This document shows, piece after piece, positions 2,043-18,181 of a stretch of DNA of 32,000 bases. Positions within the stretch are counted from its first letter, which is position 1; every line of letters begins with the position of its first letter. The notes under the pieces were generated by a model, which saw nothing but the letters and a program-made list of their open reading frames with translations, was not told the origin of the DNA and did no database searches. This DNA comes from Pirellula staleyi DSM 6068 (GTDB lineage Bacteria > Planctomycetota > Planctomycetia > Pirellulales > Pirellulaceae): contig CP001848.1 of the NCBI GenBank assembly GCA_000025185.1, forward strand, positions 5,820,001 through 5,852,000. Direction: 5' to 3'. Position numbers and translations under genes: made by a program.

Positions 2043-2332
2043 AAATATCTCGCTTTGACCCCAAATGAAACACGCTTGACGGGTGTATTCGCAGACGCAC
2101 CGCCGCGGCACTATATGGGTTCCGCATTTACTTTGGAAGCAAGTACATTCAGACTTTTTCCAAATAAATGCTATTCTCTCGATTGATTTAACAGGCCCTT
2201 AATAAGGACAGAAGCCCCCCCTTGCAATTAAAACCAAGTGTTGATCGCCTCAAAGCCCTACCTGCTCAGGAGTTAGGCGTCGGACGCATATGGCCCGAGT
2301 GCCGACGATGAGGAGCAAGCATTCGTACTGAA

Positions 2333-2635
2333 TCATGCAATTCCCCGAGAGCCAACGACAGCTTGTGGTTCGTGTTGCGACCAGACCTTGATCAAGCTCA
2401 CCGATATGGATTCGAACTGAAATCGTGACTTCTTATTCCCAAGTACGCATCTGCAGCCTAGATCGACATAGCGGATCGCTTCATCATGTGTATGTAGATA
2501 GGGCTTAGAGCGATAGATTCCCATTCGTAAGAAGGTCAATTTGAGACCAACGGTAGCGAATAAGACGGCAAAATTGGCTAGCGCCCACGCAGGAAAGCCG
2601 AACGAGGCTGGCGAACAATCAGTACAAAACCGCAT
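2333..2635 (-). CDS. Hypothetical small protein, possibly membrane-associated (weak call)
   Basis: A 100-aa ORF starting 40 nt downstream of the 323-aa gene on the same strand. It has a hydrophobic stretch, FGFPAWALANFAVLFATVGL. I recognise no family motif. Confidence 0.25.
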   Translation of the reverse strand: MRFCTDCSPASFGFPAWALANFAVLFATVGLKLTFLRMGIYRSKPYLHTHDEAIRYVDLGCRCVLGNKKSRFQFESISVSLIKVWSQHEPQAVVGSRGIA

Positions 2636-2675
2636 GGTCGATCACGATAGCGAGACGATTGAGGTGCGATGCCCC

Positions 2676-3647
2676 TTAGCGCCACAAAATCGACGGAGAG
2701 TCCTGCGACGAGCGTAGAAATCCGACGGGAAGTCGTGGGATTCCGAGGATTTCATTGGCGAGATCAAACCGCTTCCAGACTTCGGCGTCGTCCGGTGGGT
2801 CAATGATTACCAGGTTCGTTTCTACGCTCTCGAAGTTCTTGGCAGGGAGCCACGACTTGCAAGTAGGTGGTAGTAGGCCAAGCTCAACGTACTGCTCAAC
2901 AAGCGTCTTGATGCCTTGCGATAGGTACTCCTTCGCCATGGAGAACATGTCACGGTTGAACGCAGCCTCTTGGCAGCCCCAGTACAGACTTGGAAGATTC
3001 GACCCCAGCATGAGTTCGAAGCAGACGAGTTGTTGCTCCGGCCCAATTGCCAAAATATCAACCGCTCGATTGAGAAACCCGTTTTCGCCCCAGTTAGCTC
3101 TATCTTGCTGCTGCAATTTTGCTCGTTTGGCAAGCTGCTCCTGATGGAGCGGGCGATAAAACGCATCCTCTTCCGCGTCGGTTTCAAACCGGATCGACGA
3201 CCAGCGATCAAACATTAACCAGGGTGAATCGGATTGCCAGCAAACTCCATAGGATTTCAGAAGCTGGTTGGTCCAGTAACCTTCCTTGCGATCGCGGAAG
3301 AAACGTTCATCAGCCAGCAGACTGGCTGCTCGAAGGTATTGATCGATACCGGTAGCAAGTTGATCGGAGTCAAGCGTGAGCCCCATCACGTAGAGAGCTT
3401 CGTGTTCGGGTAGCTGGCGATAGCGGCGTGGGGCATTTAGCTCGATCCTCTCGTCACCTGTCGACTGCACAGTGAGCAGGCGTTCGAGCCCATGGTAAAT
3501 CTCTAGCGAATCGCCTCCTCGTATTCGGAGGTCGAATCGACACTCTTCTGTCGGATCAGAATTCCCAGTGAGCGCGATCAGCTTCCGCAAACTCGACTGC
3601 TGAAACTCACGCAAGAAACGATGACTCCAGGTATTAGGAAACTGCAT
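2676..3647 (-). CDS. Hypothetical protein with a possible degenerate PD-(D/E)xK-like core
   Basis: A 323-aa ORF with GAGGAG 5 nt upstream of the ATG (plus-strand ctcctc at about 3653-3658). The core AVDILAIGPEQQLVCFELMLGS has the D...E-x-K spacing of restriction-endonuclease-fold proteins, but Met replaces Lys. No family assignment is possible by eye. Confidence 0.7.
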   Translation of the reverse strand: MQFPNTWSHRFLREFQQSSLRKLIALTGNSDPTEECRFDLRIRGGDSLEIYHGLERLLTVQSTGDERIELNAPRRYRQLPEHEALYVMGLTLDSDQLATGIDQYLRAASLLADERFFRDRKEGYWTNQLLKSYGVCWQSDSPWLMFDRWSSIRFETDAEEDAFYRPLHQEQLAKRAKLQQQDRANWGENGFLNRAVDILAIGPEQQLVCFELMLGSNLPSLYWGCQEAAFNRDMFSMAKEYLSQGIKTLVEQYVELGLLPPTCKSWLPAKNFESVETNLVIIDPPDDAEVWKRFDLANEILGIPRLPVGFLRSSQDSPSILWR

Positions 3648-3928
3648 GGCTACTCCTCAGCCCAATGACAACGTAAAGCCTAAGCGGGTGAGTTGCAATT
3701 CTTAGCCCGCGTCATCGGCAGCAGTGGGTCAGCCTCGGTCGTTTCTGATGGCAAGGGGTTCTTTATGCCCCATCAAGCCGTCTGCCGAAATTCGTGCAAC
3801 CGCCACGTCACTACTGCCCCACTGCGGTCATTGAGTCTGGCGAGAATCTCCATCGCCATGAATCAGCCGCAAGGGCTAGCCTCGCGGGGTAATACGCTCA
3901 ACTTCGACTCAGCGCAAGGAACTAGCAC

Positions 3929-4093
3929 ATGTTTGATGACGATCCAGTGGACCCGATCAAAGAGGCCATGCGGCAGCACTACCGCAACAACCCCGGAAAA
4001 GCTTTTGCCGAGCATGGGCAAGCCGTCATCATCTTTGTTGTCATTCTGATTGTCGGTGCGATCGTAGGATCGATTGCCAATTTATTCCGCTAA
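3929..4093 (+). CDS. Small single-pass membrane protein candidate (54 aa)
   Basis: Hand-translated as MFDDDPVDPIKEAMRQHYRNNPGKAFAEHGQAVIIFVVILIVGAIVGSIANLFR*. It has one clear TM helix and AAGGA 8 nt upstream, and it ends 87 nt before the MBL gene. It is below the ORF-track size cut-off. Confidence 0.3.
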   Translation: MFDDDPVDPIKEAMRQHYRNNPGKAFAEHGQAVIIFVVILIVGAIVGSIANLFR

Positions 4094-4179
4094 GTCGTGG
4101 TCGCCTGATCCCAGCTGGCGACTCGTCAGTGATTCGAATTCACAATGGACGTTAGTTCTGCCGAGGAAAGATTGGCTGG

Positions 4180-5475
4180 ATGAGAATTACGATTCATCGA
4201 GGAACAAAAGAAATTGGTGGCTCCTGTGTCGAGATTGCAACGACATCGACCCGAATTGTGCTCGACCTGGGACTGCCGATTGTGGATGCCAATCGAGAAC
4301 CATTCGACTCGCGACTGGCACTCACCAAATCCAACGAAGAGCTTCGGGATGAAAAAGTTATTCCCGCTATTGCGGGACTCTTCGACGAATCTCACGCACC
4401 TCCCGATGCCATTCTGTTGAGTCATGCGCATCTCGACCACGCAGGGTTGCTGCACAGGTCTCGCACCGAAGTGCCCATCTACACCACAGCTGGCACGAGC
4501 AAGATGATGCTTGCTGCTGGAGTATTTGCTGGTCAAAAATCACTTGATCGAAACCGGTTTCGTCCGGTGACCAGCCAACAAACCTATCGCATTGGCGATT
4601 TCAGCATCACTCCGCTTTCCGTCGATCACTCGATCTTTGGAAGCGTTGCCTACCTCATCGAAGGTGATGGCAAGGCCATTCTTTACACGGGAGATTTTCG
4701 AAATCATGGCCGCAAACCAGGCATGATGCGCGACCTACTTGCCTTCGTTCGAGGCAAATCGATCGATGTGCTGATTGTCGAAGGAACACATTTTGGTGGC
4801 GAGCGAGAGCAAGGACGATCGGAGTTTGAGCTAGAAGTCGAGATCAGGAGTCTGATCGAATCAGCACCGGCTCTCGTGCTGGCCTGTTTTTCTGCACTCG
4901 ACATTGATCGGCTGGTAACGATCTATAAGGCGAGTCAAGCCGCAGGACGAACCTTAGTGATCGACGCCTATGCCGCATTTGTGCTTCATTTGCTTGGCAG
5001 TTCCGTCAGTACGCCCAAGCCGACGAAGGAATATGGAATTCGAGTGTTTTTCAACGCGCATTTCGAGAAGAGAAATCTCGTTGAAATTCGCAAGAGGTTT
5101 GAAGAAGTTCAGATTGAACTTTCCGAAGTGCTTCGAGATGAGAATCGCTATGTAATGATGTTTCGTCCATCGATGCTCGCGTCTGACTTTGGTGGATCAC
5201 TGCCTAAGCCTTGCCGATGCCTCTACGGATACTGGAAGGGTTACCTCGCAAAACCCGACTGGCAGGAACTTCAAAACGTGATTGAAGGTGCCCACGGCGA
5301 CTTCATTCCCGCACACGTCAGCGGTCATGCTTACATTCGCGACATCATTGCACTTGTCGCTGCCATCCAGCCGCGCCACATCCTGCCGATTCACACCTTC
5401 TCGCCCGAGAGCTTTAACGAGCACTTTGCGAATGTAGTAGCTATCGAGGATGGTTTGCCGTATCAAGTGAACTGA
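4180..5475 (+). CDS. MBL-fold metallo-hydrolase of the beta-CASP / RNase J-like type (putative nuclease)
   Basis: N-terminus MRITIHRGTKEIGGSCVEI. HxHxDH zinc motif LLSHAHLDHAGLL. YTGDF motif. The late HVSGHA motif is typical of beta-CASP members. GAGGAAAG lies 9 nt upstream of the ATG. Confidence 0.85.
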   Translation: MRITIHRGTKEIGGSCVEIATTSTRIVLDLGLPIVDANREPFDSRLALTKSNEELRDEKVIPAIAGLFDESHAPPDAILLSHAHLDHAGLLHRSRTEVPIYTTAGTSKMMLAAGVFAGQKSLDRNRFRPVTSQQTYRIGDFSITPLSVDHSIFGSVAYLIEGDGKAILYTGDFRNHGRKPGMMRDLLAFVRGKSIDVLIVEGTHFGGEREQGRSEFELEVEIRSLIESAPALVLACFSALDIDRLVTIYKASQAAGRTLVIDAYAAFVLHLLGSSVSTPKPTKEYGIRVFFNAHFEKRNLVEIRKRFEEVQIELSEVLRDENRYVMMFRPSMLASDFGGSLPKPCRCLYGYWKGYLAKPDWQELQNVIEGAHGDFIPAHVSGHAYIRDIIALVAAIQPRHILPIHTFSPESFNEHFANVVAIEDGLPYQVN

Positions 5476-5627
5476 CATGCGGTTCTTCTCCCCACAAAAA
5501 ACGCCTATCGTTGATAAAGGTAACTTCCTTTATCGAATGCAACATCCACTTATTCTTTCGCCTAAAAAATACACTGCAGAGTGTAGTTGACGCATGCAAG
5601 TTGAAGAAGGGCGAAGTGATTGTCAAC

Positions 5628-6334
5628 TTACTTCTCCCATCGCAGCAGCACTCCGCTAAAGCGGTTAAGCCAGCTGTGAGTACCCTTGACGACCCAACGC
5701 CTAGGGCGAACCCGCCTCTTTCTCACAACTCTTGATAGCGTGCGTGGATGTGAGCATGAAACAATAACTGACCTTGCACACACATGCGACCCCCTTTTGA
5801 GTCATAAGATTTATCGAGCAGCAGGCGTTCATAAGGAGAGTAAGTATCTCGCGGTAATATTAAAAGGCAGTTCTCGAGTGTTGCTTAAAGAAGACGTGAC
5901 TTGTTGGTATAGGTTCCGGAGATGGCGAATCCAACGGGGATGCCACGAGCATCGGCCATGTGAGCACTTGGTTCCCGGCTTGGTCAGATCCGCAAGGTTT
6001 TTGCCGGTTGTTTCGCAACCGAGGGGAGATTTGGTCACCGCACCATCGATACCTTGCCAGCGCCAGTCGAGTCCCACGAGGTCGTCAAGAGGCTCAATCG
6101 CTATTTACCATAAACCGTTGAATATGCCTTACTTTACACATTGCTGACAGTAGCTGTGGGCAGTGCTGTCAGCGGCAAGGCACCATAGTACGTTTTCAAT
6201 TGACAGCCTGCGCACTTTCGGTAGAAGATGCCTTCCACTCTGTCGCTTAGCACGGTTCTTGGCCGTCCGCCCAACGGCGAAGGAACGTATAGCGACAACA
6301 GGAGCTGAATCTGCTCCCGTGATTTGTAGAGCAT
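5628..6334 (-). pseudogene. IS5-family (DDE, DUF4096 N-terminus) transposase remnant broken by stops and frameshifts
   Basis: Three fragments lie in different frames. N-terminal: GGRPRTVLSDRVEGIFYRKCAGCQLKTYYGALP, matching the GRPR...ILNGIFYVLRTGCQWR pattern. Middle: LDWRWQGIDGAVTKSPLGCETTGKN..GTK, followed by a frameshift, after which DARGIPVGFAISG reads in another frame. C-terminal: RRWVVKGTHSWLNRFSGVLLRWEK*, with its stop at 5628-5630. I could not find terminal inverted repeats. Confidence 0.75.
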
Positions 6335-6576
6335 TCGTTAGGCATCAAAAAGCTAAAGCACAATCCAAGGCGGGTCTTCTTGTAAGGGTGCGAGTACGAT
6401 AACTCTCCTTTACCAAAAGGACTCACCTCTTTTCAAATACCAGTTTCGGGTTGCCGGATAGGCTCTACCTCAAATCACACCTTTTTGTGATATGCATCGC
6501 CTCACCCCATGACAGCAACGACTCCTCTTATATATATACTCCAGAGAAATCCGTTTATGCCACAAACACAAAACGC

Positions 6577-9396
6577 TCACGCATCAATCCGAACCGTAGA
6601 ACGCTCTTCAGCTTCGTAGCACATCAAAGTCGCAATAACATCTGACACAAAATCGAGGCAAAACCTCTGAAACGTGAACTCCTCTACACTAACCTGATCC
6701 GACCACGTTTCACCACCAAAGTCAACCATTTCCCCTTTTTGTTTGTCCCATTTAAAATTATCGCCCGCCAAGTATCCAACGGTATGCATACCGAGACGGG
6801 TACCCCTGTCGGGATGATACTTCTGTGGCCCAACAGGCGCGACGATCCACGGACTACCTGGAACCTTATGGAAGGCTGCGACACTTGGATCAGGTGCACC
6901 ACCAAGAGTAACATGATCTTGAATACGAGCATATGGATCATACTTTGATCGACTCACTGTATATTCCACATATGCATCGGAATCACAAATAACACTTCCA
7001 CAGTAGCCATTATCACTGACATGGCCTGGCGGGGACGCATCCTGCCTATCTTGAGAGCCAACGCAGATCGCACCTTGACGACGCCCACCTCCACACCTAT
7101 TCAAAACAAATAATCGAGCCCTTTGCAACCCACACTCTGGCGACACAAGCGCCGACAGCAAGCCATCAATAACGCTACGACGAAAAGTCGCCACCTTAAC
7201 CCTTTCGCCCCAAGACTTCCCTTCATCAACTGGACTAAGCTTGTCAGCAACTCTTTGTAAAAACTGAAGCGAACGTCCGTTTGTAGTCGCAGCGTAATTC
7301 GAGGATTCAGGCTCATTTGCGAGAAGGTGAAGTATACGCCTTGCCCGCTCGAGACCACGCCAAAACCTTTTTCTCCAGACTGGCTCGGACTTATTAGGCA
7401 AAGTGGTCCGTTCATAAGATACCTGACCAGCAAGCCCCGACCACCCAACAAATACCCCCGCCGTATATCCTCGCACATGAACAGGGAAGGCATAAATCGG
7501 ACCTTCAATTTGAAAGAATTCTTTTCCCCTCTTGGCCATAACTGCTGGGCAAGAATTCAAGCACATCTCAGCATCAGCCAGCTTAATAGTTCTCCGCTCT
7601 CTAAATGCTTCACACGCAAGAGACTGCTCTTCAAAACTGTAATCCCAGAGATCTCGCCCCGCCCTCTCCTTCTCTGAGTCAGTCCTTAGTGGAGCTTCAA
7701 GCTTTCCGCGAAATGGATCGATCTGATACAACAGGCATTGCAAATCAAGATCATCTAGATCACGACTACGCCGCAGAATCTCCTGCAATTTTATCGGACT
7801 ATCGCTGTATTTCTTAAGGCACTTGGCAGAGTCGGAAAGTCGATTTGCTTCATATCTCGCCGCACCAATCCTTCCAGCAAAGTCTCTAGCTACTTCAAAA
7901 TGATACTTGGAGAACATATATCCAGCGCCAGCCTCTAATGTGAGAACTCCCGATCGTCGTCCATCGACATATATTGGCACCAAAAGCGCGGTTTTCGTAC
8001 TAGGGTTCTGTGGTTTGAAATGAATATCGACAAACCCCTGGCGATCCAACTCAATAGCACTATGATCGACACTCTCAATTAAGGCGAAGTCGTCATCTAT
8101 TTTGCGCTGCAAGAAGAGTCGGCTTTGGATCACATTATTTGGAACCTGAACTGCGGAATATGATTCCTGACGCAATCCAGTTGGCTGTTTCAAATCGACT
8201 AAGTACGTTACAGTCTGATCAGTTTCTCGATGCGAGAACATCCGATAAATTACACGATGCTCCGCTAAATTCGGCATAGTCATGCAAACATCTCCGTAGG
8301 GAACACCTAGACGAAGCATTAGGGTTTGCAAGAGCCAAGAGGTCTGTAGTCGTTCGCTCGGAGCCTTAAGGTGGGTCGAAGGATCTGGTAAATACTGCGC
8401 CCGGCCGAAACGAAACGGTTGTGAACGTCCGGAAAACGCAGCCAATCCCCCTAAATGCGCAATGGTCGCGGCGACTCCACCGGTAATTGGATCGTTGGGT
8501 AATGAAGGTGCATTTATCTCATTAGCAACTATTGTCCGAATATTGTATGATCGCTCCAGAACTTCAGAATAACCTGGGTCATAAAACCTTCGAGGAAATA
8601 TTGCGTAATGCGGTCCGAACACATCTCCGTATAGCGACTTAGCTTCATCCATCAGGGACAGAAGATCGGGATCGGAAAAGCTTACCCCTGTGAACAGGAA
8701 GGTTCGGGTAGCCAAGAGCATTCGAAGACAATGTAGTAACGATTCGTTTACCTGCATCAAATCACGGTAGTGTGAGCGAGCAAGAACAACGGATTGTCGT
8801 ATTGCATAGTCTCCATGCAACTTTAGAACGCAGAAGATTCCAGACCTCAAGTTCTGGAGTACATCATGTGGATTTTGCCAAGTAAGGCGAGGAACCGATG
8901 AGTGATAGGCAGACTCTAGGAGGCAGTCATAGTTCGTAGTGATAGCCAAAGAAAATGGAATGGCCGCAATTGTTCGATGAATAGCGGTTGGAACTGATGC
9001 GTTCCCAAATACTCTGTGAGTTAAGTTTTGCAGACGATTGCCTAGTACGTTTTGCAACATCTCTGCGGCAACTAAAAAATCTCCCGATGCAATTCGCCTA
9101 GATATGCTTGCTGCAGTCGCCCTCGAGTAGAGCCTCGCCTCTTGCTCTAGTGTTTCGAGAAATCCTACCCAACCAGGTAAACCTGCCGCCAAAGAGGCGC
9201 CAGCACCTAAGTAGACGACGCTATTCCCACGAGCAATCGCCTCAATTAACTCTGTTGAACGGGCAGTCAATTGTCCAGACGCCTCAACGGTTTCCGGATT
9301 CTCCATCCGATCCAATATACTATGACTGCGGCGTTCTTCTAAAGGTGTATTCCAATCTCTATCGAAGAACATGGTAGTTGAAGTCATTTTGAGCAC
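6577..9396 (-). CDS. SIR2-like (SIR2_2 type) putative NADase with three tandem GAF-like modules
   Basis: SIR2_2 motifs: VVYLGAGASLAAGLPGW (aa 60-76), ITTNYDCLLE (Asn155), LKLHGDY (His194), FLFTGVSFSDPDLL. GAF-like signatures: TALLVPIYVDGRRSGVLTLEA...FEVARDFAGRIGAARYEANRL (about aa 350-520), GPIYAFPVHVRGYTAGVFVGWS (about aa 540-695), SPWIVAPVGP...GMHTVGYLAGDN (about aa 710-925). The track start at 9396 is GTG. The ATG at 9387 has GAGGTG 6 nt upstream and is the more likely start. Confidence 0.85.
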   Translation of the reverse strand: MLKMTSTTMFFDRDWNTPLEERRSHSILDRMENPETVEASGQLTARSTELIEAIARGNSVVYLGAGASLAAGLPGWVGFLETLEQEARLYSRATAASISRRIASGDFLVAAEMLQNVLGNRLQNLTHRVFGNASVPTAIHRTIAAIPFSLAITTNYDCLLESAYHSSVPRLTWQNPHDVLQNLRSGIFCVLKLHGDYAIRQSVVLARSHYRDLMQVNESLLHCLRMLLATRTFLFTGVSFSDPDLLSLMDEAKSLYGDVFGPHYAIFPRRFYDPGYSEVLERSYNIRTIVANEINAPSLPNDPITGGVAATIAHLGGLAAFSGRSQPFRFGRAQYLPDPSTHLKAPSERLQTSWLLQTLMLRLGVPYGDVCMTMPNLAEHRVIYRMFSHRETDQTVTYLVDLKQPTGLRQESYSAVQVPNNVIQSRLFLQRKIDDDFALIESVDHSAIELDRQGFVDIHFKPQNPSTKTALLVPIYVDGRRSGVLTLEAGAGYMFSKYHFEVARDFAGRIGAARYEANRLSDSAKCLKKYSDSPIKLQEILRRSRDLDDLDLQCLLYQIDPFRGKLEAPLRTDSEKERAGRDLWDYSFEEQSLACEAFRERRTIKLADAEMCLNSCPAVMAKRGKEFFQIEGPIYAFPVHVRGYTAGVFVGWSGLAGQVSYERTTLPNKSEPVWRKRFWRGLERARRILHLLANEPESSNYAATTNGRSLQFLQRVADKLSPVDEGKSWGERVKVATFRRSVIDGLLSALVSPECGLQRARLFVLNRCGGGRRQGAICVGSQDRQDASPPGHVSDNGYCGSVICDSDAYVEYTVSRSKYDPYARIQDHVTLGGAPDPSVAAFHKVPGSPWIVAPVGPQKYHPDRGTRLGMHTVGYLAGDNFKWDKQKGEMVDFGGETWSDQVSVEEFTFQRFCLDFVSDVIATLMCYEAEERSTVRIDA

Positions 9397-9460
9397 CTCG
9401 TCGAACTGATTCTGCAGAATAGCCTTTCTAAGTTTCGCTCATTCCGACGAGGTTCTACCG

Positions 9461-9495
9461 CAAAAAGGCAGCTGTTGCAAATAGAAAACAGCTAC
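9461..9495 (-). terminator. Rho-independent terminator-like hairpin between the STAND gene and the SIR2 gene
   Basis: The minus strand reads GTAGCTGTT-ttctatttgc-AACAGCTGC followed by CTTTTTG. That is a 9-bp stem with one G-U pair and a 10-nt loop, followed by five T residues. It starts about 60 nt after the STAND stop codon at 9556. Confidence 0.5.
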
Positions 9496-9555
9496 ATTTC
9501 GAACGGCTAAATAATTGTGGGAAAGACTGTTCGATATTCCAGATCGCGGTAGGTA

Positions 9556-12500
9556 TTAATCCTCGAATCTCTGCCCTTGACGGATGCGTTCCCTTGCCTC
9601 CCCATGCCGCTCATCTGAAATTTTGCCTATGAGCTTCTGGTACCGATTTTTAGCCCAATCCGCTACTTCGCTTCTTTCATCACTCTGCAGCGGAATCATC
9701 AAAGCAGACCTAGCCTCAAGTATCGAAGCCCTTGAACCGCTCCATGCTAAAAAGTCAAACAATGACTGCGAAATGCTTTCCAGAGTCAAAACCGGGTTCG
9801 GACTCTGATTGACGATCACCATCGCTATGGGCCTCCAGCACATCGGTTGCCCTGCCTCTCCTTTCACGAATGACGTGATGCATGCAGCGATCTTCGCGTA
9901 GCGTACGTGTGGCTCACGACGGCACCAATTCAGCAACTGTTCATCTGGTATTTGGTCGAAGGGATTCCCGTAGGGCCCCCACAGCATTTTGTACATGCTC
10001 CAATCTCGTCGCCTCTCTGCGTCGCCATCGATGAAGCTGTCCAAGAATAATGCCGGTCGAGCATTCGCGAGTTTGTTCATTGTTCTCGGATAGTCATATC
10101 GTGAAATGCTGTGACGAGTAATCCCGGCTGACAAGCCTTCGCACAGATTTCGAGCGGCAACGCCCCCGGCTTTGGATGTGATACAATTCTTTATAAGCCC
10201 CCCAAGGTGATAGTCCCGATCTTGACTCCGTGAGGTCTTTTCTGGGAATTTAAATTGCGAGAGAAAATGCCTTGCGAACCGTAGAATCTGATTTCTCGTC
10301 CGTGGACTGTGATCATTGCTCAGTCGCGAATCCAGAGCTTCGATCACAAAGTCGGCTCCACCTTCCAGTTCCATCACTACTCGCAGGAACTTGACTAGCT
10401 CCTTGTCTCCAAGACTCACCTGAACCCCAGCGTAGCAGAGCCTTCGCAAAGAATTGACATCCTGAAGTCTGCCTTGCAAAGCCTTTCTCAGCCGACTGAG
10501 CGATTCCGCATTCAACGGGAAGGCCAGTTGCAAATCTGGAAAAACCTGTGAAAACGTGTTGTCGGTAACCAAGATGTCCATTGCAGTACCAAACAGACTG
10601 CGATCTGAATCATGAATGCCTGCCAAGTAGCCGTATATGACTCCAAACCGGCGCTCTTTCGGACTCGCGCTAACATACTCATACCTCAATTGTGTTAGCA
10701 GTTTGAGATAATCCGAAGCTCCCTTCGCCAATCCTCTTCCGAATGCAAACACTCGCTGGCTATCGCAACGGACAACCTCCGGCAGTAGCGACTCTAAATC
10801 ATCGGCAAAACCGGAGGCCAATTGACGACCGCAGTCCTCTGCAATCTCTGCCGCCCTCAGATACGCCCCTTCAAAATCCATACCGTCGCTATCCTCAAGA
10901 ACAAGCTCAGTAGAATGTCGACTGCTGGACAGGGCGAAAGCCCGAGTCCTAGCAACAAGATCCTGCGGTTTCAAGATTTGCTCAAGCTCCTTAGCAGCAT
11001 CTACACTCTCGGTCGGCAAATGCTTGCGACGACTCAGTATTTCCCGCACAGTGACCCAGCCTTCGTACCACCCTCGATACTCATGTAATTGTCGCGCTAC
11101 CGCGATGATCTGATCAAACTGCCGCGTGTGAATCCAAAGTCCAAATAGGACTTTTGCGAAACACTCACGTACCGCATTCGAATCGCCATCCTCCCTGTTA
11201 GAAAACTTCTCCACAACGAGCAAGAAGGCACGCAGCCACTCTCTTAGATCAGCAGTTGACGTAGGTGAGTACCCAGAGTCTCGAATGCGGGCACCGAAAT
11301 CGTACTCGTAAGACGAATCATCCCTTTCTGTCTTCAGCGCCGACTCAAGCATTAACACTCCTAACCGTCGTTCCTTAGCTTCTGTAGATTCAAGTAGCTG
11401 CGCTACGAAAGTCGCTCTCGCATTGGGTGACGCATGAGTGCCAGAATGCCGAATTTGCAACAAAACTGAGAGGAAGTGTCGCGATGTTGAACCACTCTGC
11501 TCGTCTTCATGCATTGCGAAAGCTACGAGAATGGTTGCAGCTCGATGAAAGAGTGAGGCGTCAAACGCCAAGTGCCAAATCAACTTCGTTAACTTCGGTC
11601 TGTGCGAACTGAGCGTAGTCCTAGCCAGGGTATCGTCCTTCGCGATCCCAACCTCAATAGCGGAGAGCGTAGCGCTTGGAGCAATGGGTGCTATGTTCTC
11701 GAAAACCGCGAAGCCGAGATCGTTCAATTTATCAACAGCACTCCCGATCAACCCTCCAGGCTGCAACCAGTCAGTTGCAATACGTGTCGCAACCGAAGAA
11801 TGGTGAAGAAACCCTAGTCTTCGGGCAAACGATTTTAGCAGCCTCTCGTCTGACGTTTGAAAGTGCCTTACCAGGGTCTCGGTCGGAATCGAAGCCAACG
11901 CCCTGTTGGCCAGATAATTCGCGATAGCGTGAGGGAGAATCGCGCGCCATGGACCTCGAATCTGCACAAGGTCTCGGCGTTGCAGCTCCGCAACTTGTCG
12001 ATAAAGCTCGGAACTCGAAGTTTCGATTAGGATGGCCAGTCTGTTCAGCTCTGAAGTTGACTCCACGCCTTCTCCGTTGAAGGAATAAACCAGAGAGCAC
12101 GCCTCAGCGGCCCGAAGCAATGCTTCGTTGGGTTGATGGCGTTGCCAAAACAGTCGGACGAATAGATCGTCGTTCCGGAGTGATATGATTGATTCGCCGA
12201 GCGATACGGTGGATGCCAACGCAATGGCGATTCGATAGTTGCCGCCAGAAAACTTAGCAATCTTCTGAGCGTTCGCATCGCCGATATGAGGAAAACGCTT
12301 TGATAAGAAAGTGTCGATTACATCTTCACTTGCTGGCCGTAGTTTAACGGCATTCGTATTCTCCGGAACGTCATCTCGAACATCATACTCGACAGTAAGC
12401 AGACTCAATAGGCTTGGTTCGCAGGTGCAAATGTCTGCCAGATGCTTGTGAAGCTCTGGCGGACAGTTGTCGACAATCAGAATTGCACGACGCTTTTCTT

Positions 12501-13377
12501 GGACCAAAGACTCGGCAAAGGTAATCGGATCTGGCATGAGCCGACTGGAGTTGTCCGCGTATAGTGCTAAATCGCGATTCAAAGAGAACTGGGAAAGGCG
12601 TTCATCAAAGAGCGCCTGTACAAAACGTGTCTTACCTGTACCCGAGAGGCCAGTCAGGCGAATTGCGGTACGGGGATTCGATAGTTGCGTGGATAATGAG
12701 TGCAGAGCATCGACGACCGAAAAATCGGTATCGAGTGATCGAGCGAAATCCTGCACAACAAGAGAATCATCGATTATGTATTCGTCCTCAATTCCACCAA
12801 ACGCATGTGCCCAGTTTTCATAGCCCTTCCAGCCCGTGATCGGTCTTCCACACTTGGTCCGAACCCAGGCAGCAAGAGATGGATGGCACTTCACCCACTG
12901 CGCAACGCGATCTGCCCCGAGGAAGTCAATGTGGAAAGACTTTGGTCGCTTGGCCCAACCAATTGCATGCTTCATGGCGTCCCTTCGACCACGTAGGCCT
13001 TTGTCAGTTGGCGACTCCTTCGAAGTTACGATCAAGTATGAACCGCCGTTTGTAGCGAGATCGCGAATTGAAGTCCTCAGGCTTCCATCTGGCCGCATCT
13101 CGCTCATGATCGCGGATGGGGGCATCCTGGATGTCTTGACTTGAATCCCGGTATACGAACGAGGAATGAAGCTCTTCGTTGGAAGCGGGCCGGCTGCCTT
13201 AACTACTACGTCGAGTCCGCCATCAGCGGCATCCTGGTGGCCCCCTGCAGTAATCGAGGAAAGTGAAATGCCTGCATTGCGAATTTCAGCTTCGCATAAT
13301 AAGACGACCAGGGTGCGAAAGTCTGCATCTCCTAGTTTTTCAATGTCTTTGCGATCAATTTCGAGAGGATTACTCAT
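9556..13377 (-). CDS. STAND-type P-loop NTPase (Avs-like architecture): Mrr-like PD-(D/E)xK N-terminal domain, NTPase, long alpha-helical C-terminal region
   Basis: N-terminal domain: DADFRTLVVLLCEAE...GGHQDAADGGLDVVV...YTGIQVKTS...GGSYLIVTS, which follows the Mrr-cat pattern (F..LV..L, DGGxD, QxK, xxTTS). Walker A: LTGLSGTGKTRF (aa 241-252). Walker B: RAILIVDNC (aa 297-305). About 950 further residues are Leu/Ala/Arg-rich and have helical-repeat character. Confidence 0.85.
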   Translation of the reverse strand: MSNPLEIDRKDIEKLGDADFRTLVVLLCEAEIRNAGISLSSITAGGHQDAADGGLDVVVKAAGPLPTKSFIPRSYTGIQVKTSRMPPSAIMSEMRPDGSLRTSIRDLATNGGSYLIVTSKESPTDKGLRGRRDAMKHAIGWAKRPKSFHIDFLGADRVAQWVKCHPSLAAWVRTKCGRPITGWKGYENWAHAFGGIEDEYIIDDSLVVQDFARSLDTDFSVVDALHSLSTQLSNPRTAIRLTGLSGTGKTRFVQALFDERLSQFSLNRDLALYADNSSRLMPDPITFAESLVQEKRRAILIVDNCPPELHKHLADICTCEPSLLSLLTVEYDVRDDVPENTNAVKLRPASEDVIDTFLSKRFPHIGDANAQKIAKFSGGNYRIAIALASTVSLGESIISLRNDDLFVRLFWQRHQPNEALLRAAEACSLVYSFNGEGVESTSELNRLAILIETSSSELYRQVAELQRRDLVQIRGPWRAILPHAIANYLANRALASIPTETLVRHFQTSDERLLKSFARRLGFLHHSSVATRIATDWLQPGGLIGSAVDKLNDLGFAVFENIAPIAPSATLSAIEVGIAKDDTLARTTLSSHRPKLTKLIWHLAFDASLFHRAATILVAFAMHEDEQSGSTSRHFLSVLLQIRHSGTHASPNARATFVAQLLESTEAKERRLGVLMLESALKTERDDSSYEYDFGARIRDSGYSPTSTADLREWLRAFLLVVEKFSNREDGDSNAVRECFAKVLFGLWIHTRQFDQIIAVARQLHEYRGWYEGWVTVREILSRRKHLPTESVDAAKELEQILKPQDLVARTRAFALSSSRHSTELVLEDSDGMDFEGAYLRAAEIAEDCGRQLASGFADDLESLLPEVVRCDSQRVFAFGRGLAKGASDYLKLLTQLRYEYVSASPKERRFGVIYGYLAGIHDSDRSLFGTAMDILVTDNTFSQVFPDLQLAFPLNAESLSRLRKALQGRLQDVNSLRRLCYAGVQVSLGDKELVKFLRVVMELEGGADFVIEALDSRLSNDHSPRTRNQILRFARHFLSQFKFPEKTSRSQDRDYHLGGLIKNCITSKAGGVAARNLCEGLSAGITRHSISRYDYPRTMNKLANARPALFLDSFIDGDAERRRDWSMYKMLWGPYGNPFDQIPDEQLLNWCRREPHVRYAKIAACITSFVKGEAGQPMCWRPIAMVIVNQSPNPVLTLESISQSLFDFLAWSGSRASILEARSALMIPLQSDERSEVADWAKNRYQKLIGKISDERHGEARERIRQGQRFED

Positions 13378-13717
13378 TGCTTTTCAAACGCCCGCCGATG
13401 CTTCCAATGATTTCGATTTCCTCCGTTGCAGTAAGTCGATGCAATGTAACTTGCGCAACAGATGGGCAACAATCCGACCGAGCCAAATTTTCAGACGCCG
13501 AAAACCTTACTTGGTCTATTTTAGCAAACAAGTGGTTACCGCTCAGGCCATTTTGAGGAAGCGGCATAACGCCTCCCCCTACCAACTGCGCAAGTTCTTC
13601 CGTCAGGAGGAACACACTAATTGCACCGAAGTTAATTCTCCACATTCGCAGCAACATCGCCACTCGGTGAGTCCACACAATGACGCCCCCTGGGAGTCCC
13701 GCTGGCACGTCCATCAA
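13370..13717 (-). CDS. Small ORF translationally coupled to the STAND gene (real start may be the ATG at 13567, giving 65 aa)
   Basis: Its stop overlaps the STAND start as ATGAGTAA (8-nt overlap at 13370-13377). The internal ATG at 13567 is preceded by GGGGGAGG with a 4-nt spacer. The C-terminus is LTATEEIEIIGSIGGRLKSNE. The region is otherwise of uncertain coding status. Confidence 0.35.
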   Translation of the reverse strand: MMDVPAGLPGGVIVWTHRVAMLLRMWRINFGAISVFLLTEELAQLVGGGVMPLPQNGLSGNHLFAKIDQVRFSASENLARSDCCPSVAQVTLHRLTATEEIEIIGSIGGRLKSNE

Positions 13718-14325
13718 ATGCCCTGCCCAGGTTTATCGCCGATATTGGACAAACGCGTTAAACAAATCCACTATGATCATAATACCTATCAGAGAGCAAG
13801 TCGTGTACCGGACCCTAAAATCGGGAGTCCCTCATTGGCATCCCCATCAACTTCGACATTGCTTGTTGCTGTACGTAGAACCCATTGCAAGACTGTCCAA
13901 TTTTTAAATTTTCGTTCTTCCTAACGCGGTATATAAATAGTCGTTGAAGGAAGTCTCACGATAGCTGGAGAGAACACTTTGATCATGTTGATCCAGCAGA
14001 GGGAGTTGTTTCGTCCTCTGTCCCCAAAGCATGAATCATCGGCACGTGGCGGCATGTAGCGAATAGCTAAATCTTCCATGTCTCGATGGAATCTTGTGGG
14101 GGGCGCGTAGTGGAGCCTGCTAGAAGGACCAGCCCAGCACTTTCCTTCACCAAGCATCTGTTAGCGGCTACTTGCCGAGTGAGAAGATGCTGGTGCATCT
14201 TTTTGAACGCGACTTTAAATGAACGCTTCTGGGAACTTAAAGGCTTAGGCAGTTCGTCCTCTTCGTCTTTCCACTCTTCACCTCAGATCGGGGCTCGCCA
14301 GCAGCTTGGTGCATCTGAAGTATGG

Positions 14326-15204
14326 CTACATCTGAGTGATGGTTGTCGACTGAAAATCACTTGCGCCAAATACAACTCGAACAGATGGAATGAGTGTGTC
14401 GCCAATCGATGCAATGAACGGCCATTCTTTGCCCCGGATACTCCGAGCGTTGCGGCCCAAGTAGTAGCTTTCGGGAGCGAGCACAATGAGCAATGGCCGA
14501 GCATCACGGCTGGGAAGAGTTTGCTCAAATCCAGCAGGGATTTTGCGTGCTGGTTTCATCTTCCAGCGTGCGAAACCACGCAAGATTTTGTCGAAGTTGG
14601 GTTGGCGATGCAAACAGGCAAGATAATCGAGGCCTTCCAAAATTGCAGTGAGCGGAGCGTTGCCGTTGACCAATTTGGCTTCCAGCACAACGAGTCCGCC
14701 GCCCGCAGTAATACCGATCAAGTCGGCTCGTCGTCCCTTCTCGGCTGATCCACCTTGTGTTGGCCACTGATAGCCAAGTAGCCAGATCTTTTCGCTGCCT
14801 AGTGTGAGGCAGCCATCTCCGGCGTGTGCAGCACGAAACAGCCTGGCGACCTGTCGCTCTTCACACTCACCATCTTCGAGCGGATGGGAATCACGATCGA
14901 TAAAGACTTCGCCGCTATAGCCAACTTTTAATTCGCGTTGTCGCTGAAACTCGGCGTCGAGCATCGCGCCGAGCAATACCGGCCAGAGCGGACGATTTCC
15001 ACGCACCTGCTGAAGTTCCAACAGCCAAGTTCGAAAGCCAGTTGGCTCGACACTTTTGGGGACCATTTTGACGACCACTTCGCGAAGGGACTGTGACATC
15101 CCCTGGCGAAACTCCGCATCTCGTCGGCTGCGATGTCGTGCAATAAGCAACGCAACATCGCATTCCACGATGCCACCAGTAGGTCGATGGCATAACTGCC
15201 CCAC
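14326..15204 (-). CDS. PD-(D/E)xK (restriction-endonuclease-fold) family protein
   Basis: The core GRRADLIGITAGGGLVVLEAKLVNG is a textbook D-x(n)-E-x-K arrangement. The track start is GTG. Internal ATGs at aa 36 and aa 47 are alternative starts. The gene is divergent from the HTH gene at 15269. Confidence 0.65.
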   Translation of the reverse strand: MGQLCHRPTGGIVECDVALLIARHRSRRDAEFRQGMSQSLREVVVKMVPKSVEPTGFRTWLLELQQVRGNRPLWPVLLGAMLDAEFQRQRELKVGYSGEVFIDRDSHPLEDGECEERQVARLFRAAHAGDGCLTLGSEKIWLLGYQWPTQGGSAEKGRRADLIGITAGGGLVVLEAKLVNGNAPLTAILEGLDYLACLHRQPNFDKILRGFARWKMKPARKIPAGFEQTLPSRDARPLLIVLAPESYYLGRNARSIRGKEWPFIASIGDTLIPSVRVVFGASDFQSTTITQM

Positions 15205-15268
15205 TGTCGTCAGAGCGTGGCACTATGTTCGTCGTTTTGCTCCAAACCAGCGAACAAACGATTCGAGC

Positions 15269-15700
15269 ATGGCTAAAAGACGAACGGAACGCCCCGATCC
15301 AGATAGGCGGCTGCGCCAAGCGGAAAAGATCGCCAGACATTTGCGGCTACTCAAGATGATTCTTGGACCAGGTAGGTGGGATGCTGATTCTCTGGCTCGC
15401 GAACTAGATTGCAGTGCTCGTACGGTGCACCGAACATTGCAGGCACTGACTCTGGCTGGAATCCCGTGGTTCTTTTGTCGCGAGACAGAATCCTACAGAG
15501 TGCGAGATGGATTTCGATTTCCAGGTCTCAAAGAGTCTTCAACGGATGAATCGTCGACAACGCAATCGACGGTTTTGACTCCTGCTGTAGTTGGGAGACT
15601 CAAGCGACTTTCTGCCAACGGGAAAAAGCTAACCTCCATATTGCAAGTAGTCTGCGATGAAGCCGAGGAGCTAAGCAGAATAATAAGTGCCTCGATTTAG
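15269..15700 (+). CDS. Short HTH transcriptional regulator (DeoR/YafY-type HTH_11-like N-terminus, no WYL domain)
   Basis: From the ATG at 15269: MAKRRTERPDPDRRLRQAEKIARHLRLLKMILGPGRWDADSLARELDCSARTVHRTLQALTLAGIPWFF..SYRVRDGFRFP. The upstream part of the 214-aa track ORF overlaps the divergent gene and looks non-coding. Confidence 0.7.
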   Translation: MAKRRTERPDPDRRLRQAEKIARHLRLLKMILGPGRWDADSLARELDCSARTVHRTLQALTLAGIPWFFCRETESYRVRDGFRFPGLKESSTDESSTTQSTVLTPAVVGRLKRLSANGKKLTSILQVVCDEAEELSRIISASI

Positions 15701-16290
15701 CTTTTTTTTCAAATACCTCAACCGCATCCCCATCGCGATCTAAGAAACACTAGATGGATATTAACACCCAACGATTTGTCTTTGATTCAATCGCTTTAAA
15801 TACAACTCCCAATTTCATTGCAATCCCTGTGTAAGGCGTCTTACGGATTTCGTTTATTCCACAGCGAAAAATGCGACTTTCAAATCGCCATTTTGCTCGC
15901 CGACAAAAACGACGCTGTAAGCCCCTAGCCTGCTCCCCCGAGCTTGCTCGATGTACCACGAAGGTCTTAACCGCTCCTCAGGGATAAGGGAAAAACTTTT
16001 TGGCGGGTGAAAAACCGCACAGGCAGCCACTTTTCGCCCACCCTGCGAAGAAATCTTTTCTAACGAGACTTTTCGTGAATTCTAGCTCCGATAGAATGAA
16101 TTTAAAGTTGCTATAAAGCGCACCACCGGTCTTCAGAGTATGTCGATCGTGATCCTAAACGGCGGGGATGACAACGGTGCGTTTTCTAAAGAGTTGTTGG
16201 GCTTGAACATGACAACGCGGGTGTTCCCTGCTCGCACCATGGAATTGCCAACATTTACCGCGATTATTCGCGGCATGTTGGGAGTTTCGT

Positions 16291-16493
16291 ATGCGTTACG
16301 TAAGTCTTCAAGAAATTGCGCAGGTTTTTGGCATCTCTGTTAGGACCCTCTACCGCCTGAGGGCCGCAGGTAGACTTCCTCGCCCGATCCAAATCGGCCG
16401 ACGCATGTCCTACTGTGTTGAGGAAATGCATCGCCATTTCCAAGCAGGAAAATGCGCACCCTCGCGAACTATCAGCAAGGGAGGGAAGTCCTA

Positions 16494-16494
<1 letters not shown>
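16291..16494 (+). CDS. AlpA/excisionase-family HTH DNA-binding protein
   Basis: MRYVSLQEIAQVFGISVRTLYRLRAAGRLPRPIQIGRR fits the HTH_17/MerR-like Xis pattern. GGGAG lies 6 nt upstream. Its stop overlaps the integrase start as TAATG. Confidence 0.8.

Positions 16495-18181
<1,687 letters not shown>

What the first reader, a model, noticed from the sequence alone, without database searches (positions are those of the whole stretch)
9556..13377. Avs-like STAND NTPase with an Mrr-type N-terminal domain
Residues 17-120 follow the type IV restriction enzyme (Mrr-cat) pattern: DFRTLVVLL, AADGGLDVVV, GIQVKTS, GGSYLIVTS. Walker A (GLSGTGKT, aa 243-250) and Walker B (ILIVD, aa 299-303) follow. About 950 aa of helical repeats could act as a ligand or phage-protein sensor.

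Effector-NTPase-sensor is the architecture of antiviral STAND (Avs) proteins. Whether this protein belongs to a described Avs clade cannot be judged by eye.
Basis: partly seen in the sequence, partly recalled or inferred. Interest (0 to 1): 0.7.

Follow-up and report, generated by a model that had tools for sequence, protein, structure and literature searches.

The report
Planctomycete Avs8 capsid-sensing defence nuclease

Summary
It matches the PADLOC profile PD-Lambda-4_A end to end (E 1.5e-275). It is also collinear over its whole length with the characterised E. coli Avs8A, WP_000963924.1 (31% identity, E 3e-169). PD-λ-4 was renamed Avs8 in 2025-26. In E. coli, Avs8A binds HK97-fold major capsid protein and then degrades dsDNA in a reaction needing Mg2+ and ATP.

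The window protein keeps D52, D56, Q79, K81, the Walker A lysine K249 and the Walker B aspartate D303. An AlphaFold model shows three parts: an N-terminal domain with PD-(D/E)xK-like topology, a P-loop NTPase with helical and winged-helix-like modules, and an α-solenoid of about 770 aa.

The window is from Pirellula staleyi DSM 6068. The gene lies in a low-GC stretch next to an integrase at tRNA-Asp. The E. coli partner Avs8B is absent here and in about 80 other loci, where Avs8A has no conserved neighbour.

The adjacent SIR2-GAF gene is never linked to Avs8A elsewhere and looks independent.

My own profile tests did not confirm Pfam Mrr_cat membership or STAND membership. Those assignments rest on topology, conserved motifs and the literature.

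Verdict: a new member of a known kind, of low to moderate interest.

The parts
9556..13377 (-). Avs8A (PD-λ-4A)-type gene, 1273 aa plus stop; identical to a 'conserved hypothetical protein' of Pirellula staleyi DSM 6068
   Evidence: ORF. PADLOC PD-Lambda-4_A E 1.5e-275, full length. 100% identical database protein P0001. 31% identity, E 3e-169, collinear with EcAvs8A WP_000963924.1.
12838..13377 (-). N-terminal effector domain, aa 1-180: predicted PD-(D/E)xK-type ('Mrr-like') nuclease
   Evidence: AlphaFold2 model has pTM 0.76. Element order is H17-34, E42-44, E57-60, E75-81, H87-109, E113-118, which is the alpha-beta-beta-beta-alpha-beta core order. About 30% identical to the EcAvs8A N-domain. 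Not detected by Pfam Mrr_cat or an EcoKMrr profile.
13210..13224 (-). D52-G-G-L-D56, the first catalytic acidic motif, just before strand β2
   Evidence: D52, G54 and D56 are invariant in 61 homologues. Corresponds to D51-GGI-D55 in EcAvs8A.
13135..13143 (-). Q79-V-K81, the (D/E/Q)xK motif on strand β3
   Evidence: Q79 and K81 are invariant. Corresponds to Q78-A-K80 in EcAvs8A. Lies inside strand E75-81 of the model.
12328..12759 (-). P-loop NTPase core, aa ~207-350, with parallel strands E238-242, E271-275, E298-303, E324-329 and E342-346
   Evidence: Secondary structure of the 1200-residue model. 44% identical to EcAvs8A in this region. Weak Pfam hits to AAA_16 and AAA_22 in 22-24 of 26 members, and NPHP3_N, nSTAND3 and NACHT in a few.
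12628..12651 (-). Walker A motif GLSGTGKT, aa 243-250
   Evidence: Located. G243, L244, S245, G246, G248, K249 and T250 are invariant.
12469..12483 (-). Walker B motif ILIVD, aa 299-303, followed by conserved N304-C305-P306
   Evidence: Located. D303 and C305 are invariant. Lies on strand E298-303.
11878..12327 (-). Helical and winged-helix-like modules after the NTPase core, aa ~351-500; includes the conserved SGGN-R-AIALA (aa 377-388) and LPHAIAN (aa 481-487) motifs
   Evidence: Helices 351-427, then short strands and helices 443-467. G379, N380, R382, L481, P482, A484, A486 and N487 are invariant. This is the best-conserved region against EcAvs8A, at 47% identity. Equating these motifs with the STAND GxP and MHD-type motifs is my inference.
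9559..11877 (-). C-terminal α-solenoid sensor, aa ~501-1273
   Evidence: Almost entirely helical in the model up to residue 1200. Foldseek matches to CAND1, karyopherins, SF3B1 and PP2A-A at E 1e-6 to 1e-4. 29% identical and collinear with the EcAvs8A sensor.
9461..9495 (-). Hairpin (9-bp stem, 10-nt loop) followed by CUUUUUG, in the 159-bp spacer after the Avs8A stop codon; a possible intrinsic terminator separating Avs8A from the SIR2-GAF gene
   Evidence: MFE -21 kcal/mol for the 81-nt stretch, z -2.69, 3 of 200 shuffles fold as well. Not flagged by the consensus scan, whose loop limit is 8 nt.
16452..18181 (.). Context: tyrosine integrase ORF (16452-18170, +) abutting tRNA-Asp (18107-18181, -). 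The Avs8A gene lies in the low-GC stretch beside them, which may be an integrated island.
   Evidence: Phage_integrase PF00589. phrog_1 integrase 1e-27. tRNA-Asp. GC 0.47-0.54 over ~2-16 kb against 0.55-0.60 outside. Housekeeping genes to the right.

Best explanation
The gene encodes a stand-alone Avs8A-type (PD-λ-4A) antiviral STAND protein of Pirellula staleyi. It lies in a low-GC stretch next to an integrase at tRNA-Asp. By homology to E. coli Avs8A, the likely mechanism has four steps. First, the C-terminal α-solenoid wraps around a monomeric HK97-fold major capsid protein made during infection by a tailed phage. Second, binding relieves autoinhibition, and the ATP-bound NTPase module drives oligomerisation, probably into a tetramer. 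Third, oligomerisation brings the N-terminal PD-(D/E)xK nuclease domains together, using D52/D56 and Q79-x-K81. Fourth, these domains degrade double-stranded DNA of phage and host indiscriminately, which aborts the infection.

Shown here: family membership, an intact domain architecture, and conservation of all catalytic motifs. Shown in the literature for the E. coli orthologue: capsid binding, ATP- and Mg-dependent DNase activity, and loss of defence in nuclease mutants. Inferred for this protein: the trigger, the oligomeric state and the DNase activity. No partner gene is needed. Avs8B is absent here, and it is dispensable in E. coli.
For: - **Family profile.** The protein matches PADLOC PD-Lambda-4_A end to end (915 bits, E 1.5e-275, aa 6-1272 on profile 5-1283 of 1283).
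- **Reference protein.** BLASTP against the reference Avs8A WP_000963924.1, fetched from an E. coli ssrA island, gives 31% identity and 50% positives. It covers aa 5-1249 against 4-1260 with E 3e-169.
- **Identity by region.** Nuclease 30%, NTPase core 44%, helical/WH modules 47%, sensor 29%.
- **Conserved residues.** D52, D56, Q79, K81, G243-T250 and D303 are invariant in 61 homologues. They map onto D51/D55, Q78/K80, GLSGVGKT and DNC of EcAvs8A.
- **Structure models.** The N-domain model (pTM 0.76) has PD-(D/E)xK strand order, with D56 before β2 and Q79/K81 on β3. The 1200-residue model (mean pLDDT 82) shows an NTPase core, helical/WH modules and a solenoid. Foldseek matches the solenoid to HEAT/ARM proteins, and the NTPase part to ORC1 and RFC AAA+ modules.
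- **Literature.** PD-λ-4A is Avs8A, described as a STAND NTPase with an Mrr nuclease domain. It binds λ gpE with a KD of 127 nM and degrades dsDNA with Mg2+ and ATP. Nuclease active-site mutants lose defence, and Avs8B is dispensable (10.1101/2025.07.02.662641). [quoted passage not shown]
- **Stand-alone status.** No conserved neighbour appears on either side in 80 loci from many phyla. Avs8B is absent from the window and from all other loci.
- **Mobile and defence context.** Integrase and tRNA-Asp flank a low-GC segment. Homologues elsewhere sit next to integrases, type I R-M, toxin-antitoxin and Abi genes.
Against: - Only 29% identity in the sensor to the one biochemically studied orthologue, so the trigger is extrapolated. 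No phage of Pirellula is available to test it.
- My own profile tests did not detect Mrr_cat. Pfam gave no hit in 26 members. hhalign against EcoKMrr, as a single sequence and as a 31-sequence profile, was negative. An unfiltered hmmsearch aligned only the DGGxD stretch, with negative scores.
- Foldseek of the N-domain against the PDB gave no hit at E<=0.001.
- No Avs structure appeared among the top 50 Foldseek hits of the large model.
- Profiles of the family, and of the NTPase module alone, found nothing significant among PDB sequences.
- Expression and activity in Pirellula are unknown.
Confidence: 0.85

Rival explanations
1. The protein belongs to the Avs8A family and uses the same nuclease output, but its diverged sensor recognises a different phage protein, or a non-HK97 capsid, rather than the HK97-fold major capsid protein.
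For: The sensor is only 29% identical to EcAvs8A. The closest database relatives are only ~42% identical overall. [quoted passage not shown]
Against: The sensor is collinear with EcAvs8A over its full length, with small gaps only. Many sensor positions are invariant across the family. EcAvs8A itself recognises capsid proteins that share less than 15% sequence identity, so recognition is fold-based and tolerant of divergence. Lee et al. report that most defence clades are dominated by one sensor type.
Confidence: 0.1
2. Avs8A and the downstream SIR2-GAF protein (6577-9396) form one two-gene system, in which the SIR2 NADase acts as a second effector in place of Avs8B.
For: The two genes are on the same strand, 159 bp apart, within the same low-GC stretch. 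SIR2 domains are common defence effectors, and the SIR2 part matches ThsA-type models at 1.6e-28. The canonical system was defined as a two-gene operon.
Against: None of 80 Avs8A loci has a SIR2-GAF homologue within 8 kb. SIR2-GAF homologues occur without Avs8A in all four contexts examined. A stable hairpin plus U-run lies in the spacer. Avs8A alone suffices for defence in E. coli. The protein has no similarity to Avs8B.
Confidence: 0.04
3. The protein is not a defence protein. It is a housekeeping or regulatory P-loop NTPase, for example KAP-type, ABC-like or a STAND transcription regulator, and the 'nuclease' motifs are fortuitous.
For: Pfam gives only sub-threshold P-loop hits and no nuclease family. 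The gene is annotated as a hypothetical protein.
Against: The protein shows full-length homology to an experimentally validated defence protein. The D...QxK residues are invariant across phyla. It has no hydrophobic segment of transmembrane strength, with a maximum KD-19 of 1.41, unlike KAP NTPases. It has no HTH or other DNA-binding output domain. The gene lies in a patchy, mobile context next to an integrase and other defence-type genes, and homologues occur on 42 plasmids and in 174 of 5426 E. coli genomes.
Confidence: 0.01

Closest known systems
Avs8A / PD-λ-4A of E. coli ECOR07 (WP_000963924.1; Vassallo et al. 2022; Nagy et al. 2025 bioRxiv 10.1101/2025.07.02.662641; Lee et al. 2026 bioRxiv 10.64898/2026.01.04.697583)
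   Same: The length is similar (1273 against 1283 aa) and the domain order is the same. The alignment is collinear at 31% identity with E 3e-169. The same D-GG-x-D, QxK, Walker A and Walker B/DNC motifs are present. The protein matches the PADLOC family profile over its full length. Both genes lie next to an integrase and an RNA gene (tRNA-Asp here, ssrA in E. coli).
   Different: The phylum differs (Planctomycetota rather than Enterobacteriaceae). Identity is low, especially in the nuclease and sensor regions (~29-30%). There is no Avs8B gene. The downstream neighbour is an unrelated SIR2-GAF gene. The trigger and activity are untested.
   Same: The logic is the same: an N-terminal effector, a STAND NTPase and a helical-repeat sensor that binds a conserved phage structural protein. 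[quoted passage not shown] That Avs4's effector is an Mrr-like nuclease acting after tetramerisation is my own knowledge.
   Different: There is no detectable sequence match. The PADLOC scan returned only PD-Lambda-4_A models at E<=1. No Avs chain appeared among the top 50 Foldseek PDB hits. Per Lee et al., the sensor architectures differ between these families.
EcoKMrr, a type IV restriction enzyme (Pfam Mrr_cat PF04471)
   Same: By eye, the motif blocks line up in the same order: GDGGIDGVI with ADGGLDVVV, VYVQAKRW with TGIQVKTS, and GVFITTSGF with GSYLIVTSK (sequences). Both have a D...QxK arrangement.
   Different: No statistical support was obtained. Pfam Mrr_cat was not hit in any of 26 family members. 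hhalign gave a probability below 1%. An unfiltered HMM search gave negative scores. The β2-β3 connection is about twice as long in Avs8A. Here the domain is an N-terminal effector of a 1273-aa protein, not the C-terminal domain of a 304-aa restriction enzyme.

Membership tests
Avs8A / PD-Lambda-4_A | Full-length match to the family profile | tested here: met
   PADLOC PDLC03991: E 1.5e-275, 915 bits, aa 6-1272 on profile positions 5-1283 of 1283.
Avs8A / PD-Lambda-4_A | Collinear homology to the experimentally characterised protein (WP_000963924.1) | tested here: met
   BLASTP gives 31% identity, 50% positives, aa 5-1249 against 4-1260, E 3e-169. The reference was fetched from E. coli NCCP15648. 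The accession is given in the Nagy et al. methods.
Avs8A / PD-Lambda-4_A | N-terminal nuclease domain with intact catalytic residues | tested here: met
   D52, D56, Q79 and K81 are invariant in 61 homologues and aligned with D51, D55, Q78 and K80 of EcAvs8A. The model has PD-(D/E)xK strand order. Which residues Nagy et al. mutated is not stated in their text.
Avs8A / PD-Lambda-4_A | P-loop NTPase with Walker A lysine and Walker B aspartate | tested here: met
   GLSGTGKT 243-250 and ILIVD 299-303, invariant across the family.
Avs8A / PD-Lambda-4_A | Large C-terminal helical-repeat sensor | tested here: met
   Residues ~501-1200 are all helical in the model. Foldseek matches HEAT/ARM solenoids at E 1e-6 to 1e-4.
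Avs8A / PD-Lambda-4_A | Activation by HK97-fold major capsid protein; ATP- and Mg-dependent dsDNA degradation | not testable with these tools
   Shown only for E. coli and related homologues. Complex modelling and biochemistry are not available here.
PD-Lambda-4 two-gene system as originally defined | An Avs8B (PD-Lambda-4_B) gene downstream of Avs8A | tested here: not met
   No PD-Lambda-4_B hit for the downstream 939-aa ORF or ten other island ORFs. tblastn of Avs8B (WP_000443183.1) against the window gives nothing below E 3. Avs8B is also absent from 80 other loci, and it is dispensable for defence, so it does not define the Avs8A family.
STAND NTPase superfamily | Tripartite NBD, helical domain and winged-helix module, with sequence or profile affinity to STAND families | tested here: inconclusive
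   The model shows a five-stranded P-loop core followed by helical and winged-helix-like segments. Pfam hits are all below gathering thresholds: AAA_16 in 22 of 26 members, AAA_22 in 24 of 26, NPHP3_N in 5, and nSTAND3 and NACHT in 1 each. The NTPase profile against PDB sequences gives nothing significant; the plant NLR Roq1 ties for the top score at E 0.76. Foldseek finds ORC1 and RFC AAA+ modules, not Avs structures. The STAND assignment is stated in the literature.
Pfam Mrr_cat (PF04471) | Match to the Mrr_cat profile or to EcoKMrr-type sequences | tested here: not met
   No hit at E<=1 for the window protein, nor at E<=0.1 for any of 26 members. hhalign against EcoKMrr and against a 31-sequence Mrr profile gave probabilities below 1%. 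An unfiltered hmmsearch gave negative scores, aligning only DGGxD. Both profiles were shallow (Neff ~2.1), so this is a weak negative.
PD-(D/E)xK nuclease fold | An αβββαβ core with an acidic residue at the start of β2 and (D/E/Q)xK on β3 | tested here: inconclusive
Avs1-5 (AVAST types I-V) | Match to the family profiles | tested here: not met
   The PADLOC scan at E<=1 returned only the three PD-Lambda-4_A models. That PADLOC holds Avs1-5 models is from my own knowledge.
KAP NTPase | Transmembrane helices inserted in or after the P-loop domain | tested here: not met
   The highest Kyte-Doolittle 19-residue window scores 1.41, and no segment reaches transmembrane strength. There is no KAP hit in Pfam.

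The most novel reading that the evidence does not exclude
The most novel reading that remains open concerns the neighbour rather than Avs8A. In Pirellula, the Avs8A gene may have been captured next to an uncharacterised SIR2-GAF-unknown-domain NADase, and the two may cooperate: capsid sensing would trigger both DNA degradation and NAD+ depletion. Alternatively, the diverged planctomycete sensor may recognise a non-HK97 target. Either would make this a functionally new Avs8 variant.
Probability: 0.06. Interest if true: 0.55.

Novelty: new member of a known kind. Interest (0 to 1): 0.22.

Why it matters
The result extends the recently characterised Avs8 capsid-sensing family to Planctomycetota at about 31% identity. 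It also shows that across some 80 loci from many phyla the gene travels alone, without Avs8B or any other conserved neighbour. That supports the experimental finding that Avs8B is dispensable. If annotation rules for PD-λ-4 require both genes, which I did not check, they would miss most of the family. The set of invariant residues across this divergence, in the nuclease, the P-loop, the SGGN-R-AIALA and LPHAIAN motifs, and scattered sensor positions, could guide mutagenesis. None of this changes the understanding of how the family works.

Tried and rejected
- **Locating the gene in public collections.** A DNA search of the gene against E. coli genomes found no match. An exact-protein contig look-up found nothing on record.
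- **SIR2-GAF as the Avs8B equivalent.** Rejected. It has no PD-Lambda-4_B hit. It does not co-occur with Avs8A in 80 loci. Its homologues sit in other contexts.
- **The 929-aa gene downstream of the Anatilimnocola homologue as a relative of SIR2-GAF or Avs8B.** Rejected.
- **A conserved neighbour of Avs8A.** Clustering the flanking ORFs of 80 loci found none.
- **Confirming Mrr_cat by sequence.** All negative: Pfam on 26 members, hhalign against EcoKMrr, profile-profile comparison against 31 Mrr homologues, BLASTP, an unfiltered HMM search, and an attempt to bridge through other Mrr_cat ORFs in the loci, of which only one existed.
- **Family, N-domain and NTPase profiles against PDB sequences.** Nothing significant.
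- **An att repeat of the tRNA-Asp 3' end within the window.** None found, either as an exact repeat of >=13 nt or as 24 nt with <=3 mismatches. The left edge of the low-GC stretch therefore remains undefined.
- **The consensus promoter and terminator scan.** It gave no more sites than shuffled sequence.

Full report
**Observation**

The window contains an ATG-initiated ORF of 1273 codons at 9556-13377 on the minus strand. It also confirmed D56, K81 and K249. These are not chance matches. I aligned 61 full-length homologues that share only 38-43% identity with the window protein. In that alignment D52, D56, Q79, K81, G243-L-S-G-x-G-K-T250 and D303 are invariant. Homologues align from residue 1, so the start codon is right.

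**Identity**

Pfam gives only sub-threshold P-loop hits for this protein (AAA_16, E 0.003). The PADLOC library, by contrast, matches the model PD-Lambda-4_A from end to end: PDLC03991, 915 bits, E 1.5e-275, aa 6-1272 on profile positions 5-1283 of 1283. No other PADLOC model was listed at E<=1.

The literature search showed that PD-λ-4 has been renamed Avs8. Nagy et al. (bioRxiv 10.1101/2025.07.02.662641) report the following for E. coli ECOR07:
- PD-λ-4A/Avs8A is a STAND NTPase with an N-terminal Mrr-family nuclease domain.
- It binds λ gpE (KD 127 nM) and the Bas21 capsid protein (KD 14 nM).
- It then degrades linear dsDNA, in a reaction that requires Mg2+ and ATP.
- Nuclease active-site mutants lose defence.
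- The second gene, Avs8B, is dispensable.

Lee et al. (bioRxiv 10.64898/2026.01.04.697583) independently find that Avs8 senses the major capsid protein. [quoted passage not shown]

**Direct comparison with the reference protein**

The window gene has no DNA-level match in E. coli. I therefore reached the reference indirectly. A protein search of the plasmid collection found 42 plasmids with homologues. The DNA of an Enterobacter plasmid copy then found related genes in 174 of 5426 E. coli genomes. One of those loci carries exactly the accessions given by Nagy et al.: Avs8A WP_000963924.1 (1283 aa) and Avs8B WP_000443183.1 (248 aa). They lie next to an integrase, just downstream of ssrA.

BLASTP of the window protein against this Avs8A gives 31% identity and 50% positives. 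The alignment covers aa 5-1249 against 4-1260 with E 3e-169 and is fully collinear. Identity by region is 30% in the nuclease domain, 44% in the NTPase core, 47% in the following helical/winged-helix modules and 29% in the sensor. The E. coli motifs D51-GGI-D55, Q78-A-K80, GLSGVGKT (from residue 241) and DNC (from residue 301) correspond one to one with those of the window protein.

**Structure**

An AlphaFold2 model of residues 1-215 has a pTM of 0.76 and is confident for residues 1-180. Its element order is H17-34, E42-44, E57-60, E75-81, H87-94/H102-109, E113-118. This is the αβββαβ order of PD-(D/E)xK nucleases. D56 lies immediately before β2, and Q79 and K81 lie on β3.

A model of residues 1-1200 has a mean pLDDT of 82. 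It adds a five-stranded P-loop core (strands at 238-242, 271-275, 298-303, 324-329 and 342-346), helical and winged-helix-like modules up to about residue 500, and an almost purely helical remainder. Foldseek of this model against the PDB returns HEAT/ARM-type solenoids such as CAND1, Kap121, SF3B1 and PP2A-A (E 1e-6 to 1e-4). For the NTPase part it returns Ctf18-RFC and ORC1 AAA+ modules.

**What I could not confirm independently**

The 'Mrr_cat' label:
- Pfam Mrr_cat does not hit any of 26 family members.
- hhalign of the N-domain profile against EcoKMrr, and against a profile of 31 Mrr homologues, gives probabilities below 1%.
- An unfiltered HMM search aligns only the DGGxD stretch, with negative scores.
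- Foldseek of the N-domain has no hit at E<=0.001. About 13 of the top 50 weak hits are PD-(D/E)xK nucleases, including XPF/Hef/Mus81, EcoO109I, Card1 and Cap4.

The 'STAND' label:
- Support from my own searches is limited to sub-threshold Pfam hits (AAA_16, AAA_22, NPHP3_N, nSTAND3, NACHT) and to the domain order in the model.
- Profiles against PDB sequences were uninformative.

A KAP-type NTPase is unlikely, because there is no hydrophobic segment of transmembrane strength (maximum KD-19 of 1.41).

**Source and context**

The protein is 100% identical to a 'conserved hypothetical protein' of Pirellula staleyi DSM 6068. Its neighbour is Psta_4469. GC content is 0.47-0.54 from about 2 to 16 kb, against 0.55-0.60 outside. 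A tyrosine integrase ORF (16452-18170) abuts tRNA-Asp (18107-18181). To the right lie housekeeping genes: biotin carboxylase, an M24 peptidase, aspartate carbamoyltransferase and an amidohydrolase. This looks like an integrated island. I found no att repeat in the window, so its left edge is undefined.

**Partner genes**

The canonical partner Avs8B is absent. There is no PD-Lambda-4_B hit among the neighbouring ORFs, and tblastn of Avs8B against the window gives nothing below E 3.

I examined 80 loci from Chloroflexota, Proteobacteria, Bacillota, Bacteroidota, Planctomycetota, Acidobacteriota and other phyla. None carries Avs8B. Clustering of the ORFs immediately upstream and downstream shows no conserved neighbour at all. 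A second E. coli locus has a reverse-transcriptase gene downstream instead. Avs8A therefore behaves as a single-gene module, which agrees with the reported dispensability of Avs8B.

**The SIR2-GAF neighbour**

The 939-aa ORF 159 bp downstream (6577-9396, same strand) has a SIR2_2 domain (E 2.8e-31) and weak GAF hits. Its SIR2 part resembles ThsA (1.6e-28). It belongs to a small family of 41 hits. Members of that family were found in four contexts:
- alone next to IS elements;
- between an SNF2 helicase gene and DUF4391, methyltransferase and restriction-endonuclease genes, with McrBC nearby;
- next to a TIR-SIR2-ATPase gene;
- among housekeeping genes.

No member lies within 8 kb of any of the 80 Avs8A genes. 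The spacer between the two window genes contains a 9-bp hairpin followed by CUUUUUG (z -2.7). The consensus scan did not flag it, because its loop is longer than the scan allows. I conclude that the two genes are neighbours in the same stretch rather than one system.

**Verdict**

The protein is a diverged, intact, stand-alone Avs8A. Its most likely mechanism is capsid-protein sensing by the solenoid, NTP-dependent oligomerisation, and DNA degradation by the N-terminal PD-(D/E)xK nuclease. For this particular protein that mechanism is inferred by homology, and I put its probability at about 0.85. The family and its mechanism were published in 2022-2026, so this is a new member of a known kind and of low to moderate interest.

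Noticed in passing
window 6577-9396 (-): This 939-aa protein (Psta_4469) has a SIR2_2 domain, with the TTNYD and KLHG motifs present, a weak GAF-like region (aa ~456-513), and about 400 C-terminal residues with no family hit. Its family is small (41 hits), and the named closest hits are planctomycetes. Members sometimes sit beside McrBC and R-M genes or a TIR-SIR2-ATPase gene, and never beside Avs8A. It looks like an uncharacterised stand-alone, ligand-gated NADase defence candidate. It may be more novel than the finding itself.
   Followed up: partly
window ~2000-18181: A low-GC stretch (0.47-0.54 against 0.55-0.60) sits beside a tyrosine integrase ORF (16452-18170, +) whose end overlaps tRNA-Asp (18107-18181, -). 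Housekeeping genes lie to the right. No att direct repeat of the tRNA 3' end was found in the window, so the left boundary is undefined.
   Followed up: partly
window 15056-15700 (+): This 214-aa protein has an HTH_11 domain and a PADLOC 'WYL' match (3e-8). WYL regulators (BrxR/CapW type) are known to me as controllers of defence systems. It lies 1.7 kb from the Avs8A start and is transcribed divergently.
   Followed up: no
window 4180-5475 (+): A 431-aa metallo-β-lactamase-fold hydrolase with an RMMBL (RNA-specificity) module, matching PHROG 392 'metal-dependent hydrolase'. It lies in the same low-GC stretch. Lee et al. list MBL among defence-associated effector proteins. No PADLOC hit.
   Followed up: no
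window 13370-13717 (-): A 115-aa TTG-initiated ORF whose stop overlaps the Avs8A ATG by 8 nt. It has no hit in Pfam, PADLOC or PHROGs, and no conserved upstream gene exists in other loci. It is probably not a gene.
   Followed up: partly
L088 (E. coli NCCP15648, 3259801-3264444) and L087 (E. coli STEC434): The reference Avs8A/Avs8B pair lies next to an integrase just downstream of ssrA. A second E. coli Avs8A-type gene (WP_095374550.1) has an RNA-directed DNA polymerase gene downstream instead of Avs8B. Among all loci examined, Avs8B was found only in the reference-type locus.
   Followed up: partly
L089 6589-9231 (-) and L090 1038-3821 (-): An 880-927-aa protein combining TIR_2, SIR2_2 and ABC/SMC-type ATPase (AAA_15/AAA_21) domains, plus a 299-aa partner, lies next to a SIR2-GAF homologue in two metagenomic contigs. 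This is an unusual fusion of two NADase-type domains.
   Followed up: no
L003 10001-13612 and 14099-16888 (Anatilimnocola floriformis): The other cultured-planctomycete Avs8A homologue is only 1203 aa and reaches profile position 1214 of 1283, so its C-terminus is shortened. It is followed by a 929-aa gene with no hit in the PADLOC scan, no Pfam hit on record, and no similarity to SIR2-GAF.
   Followed up: partly
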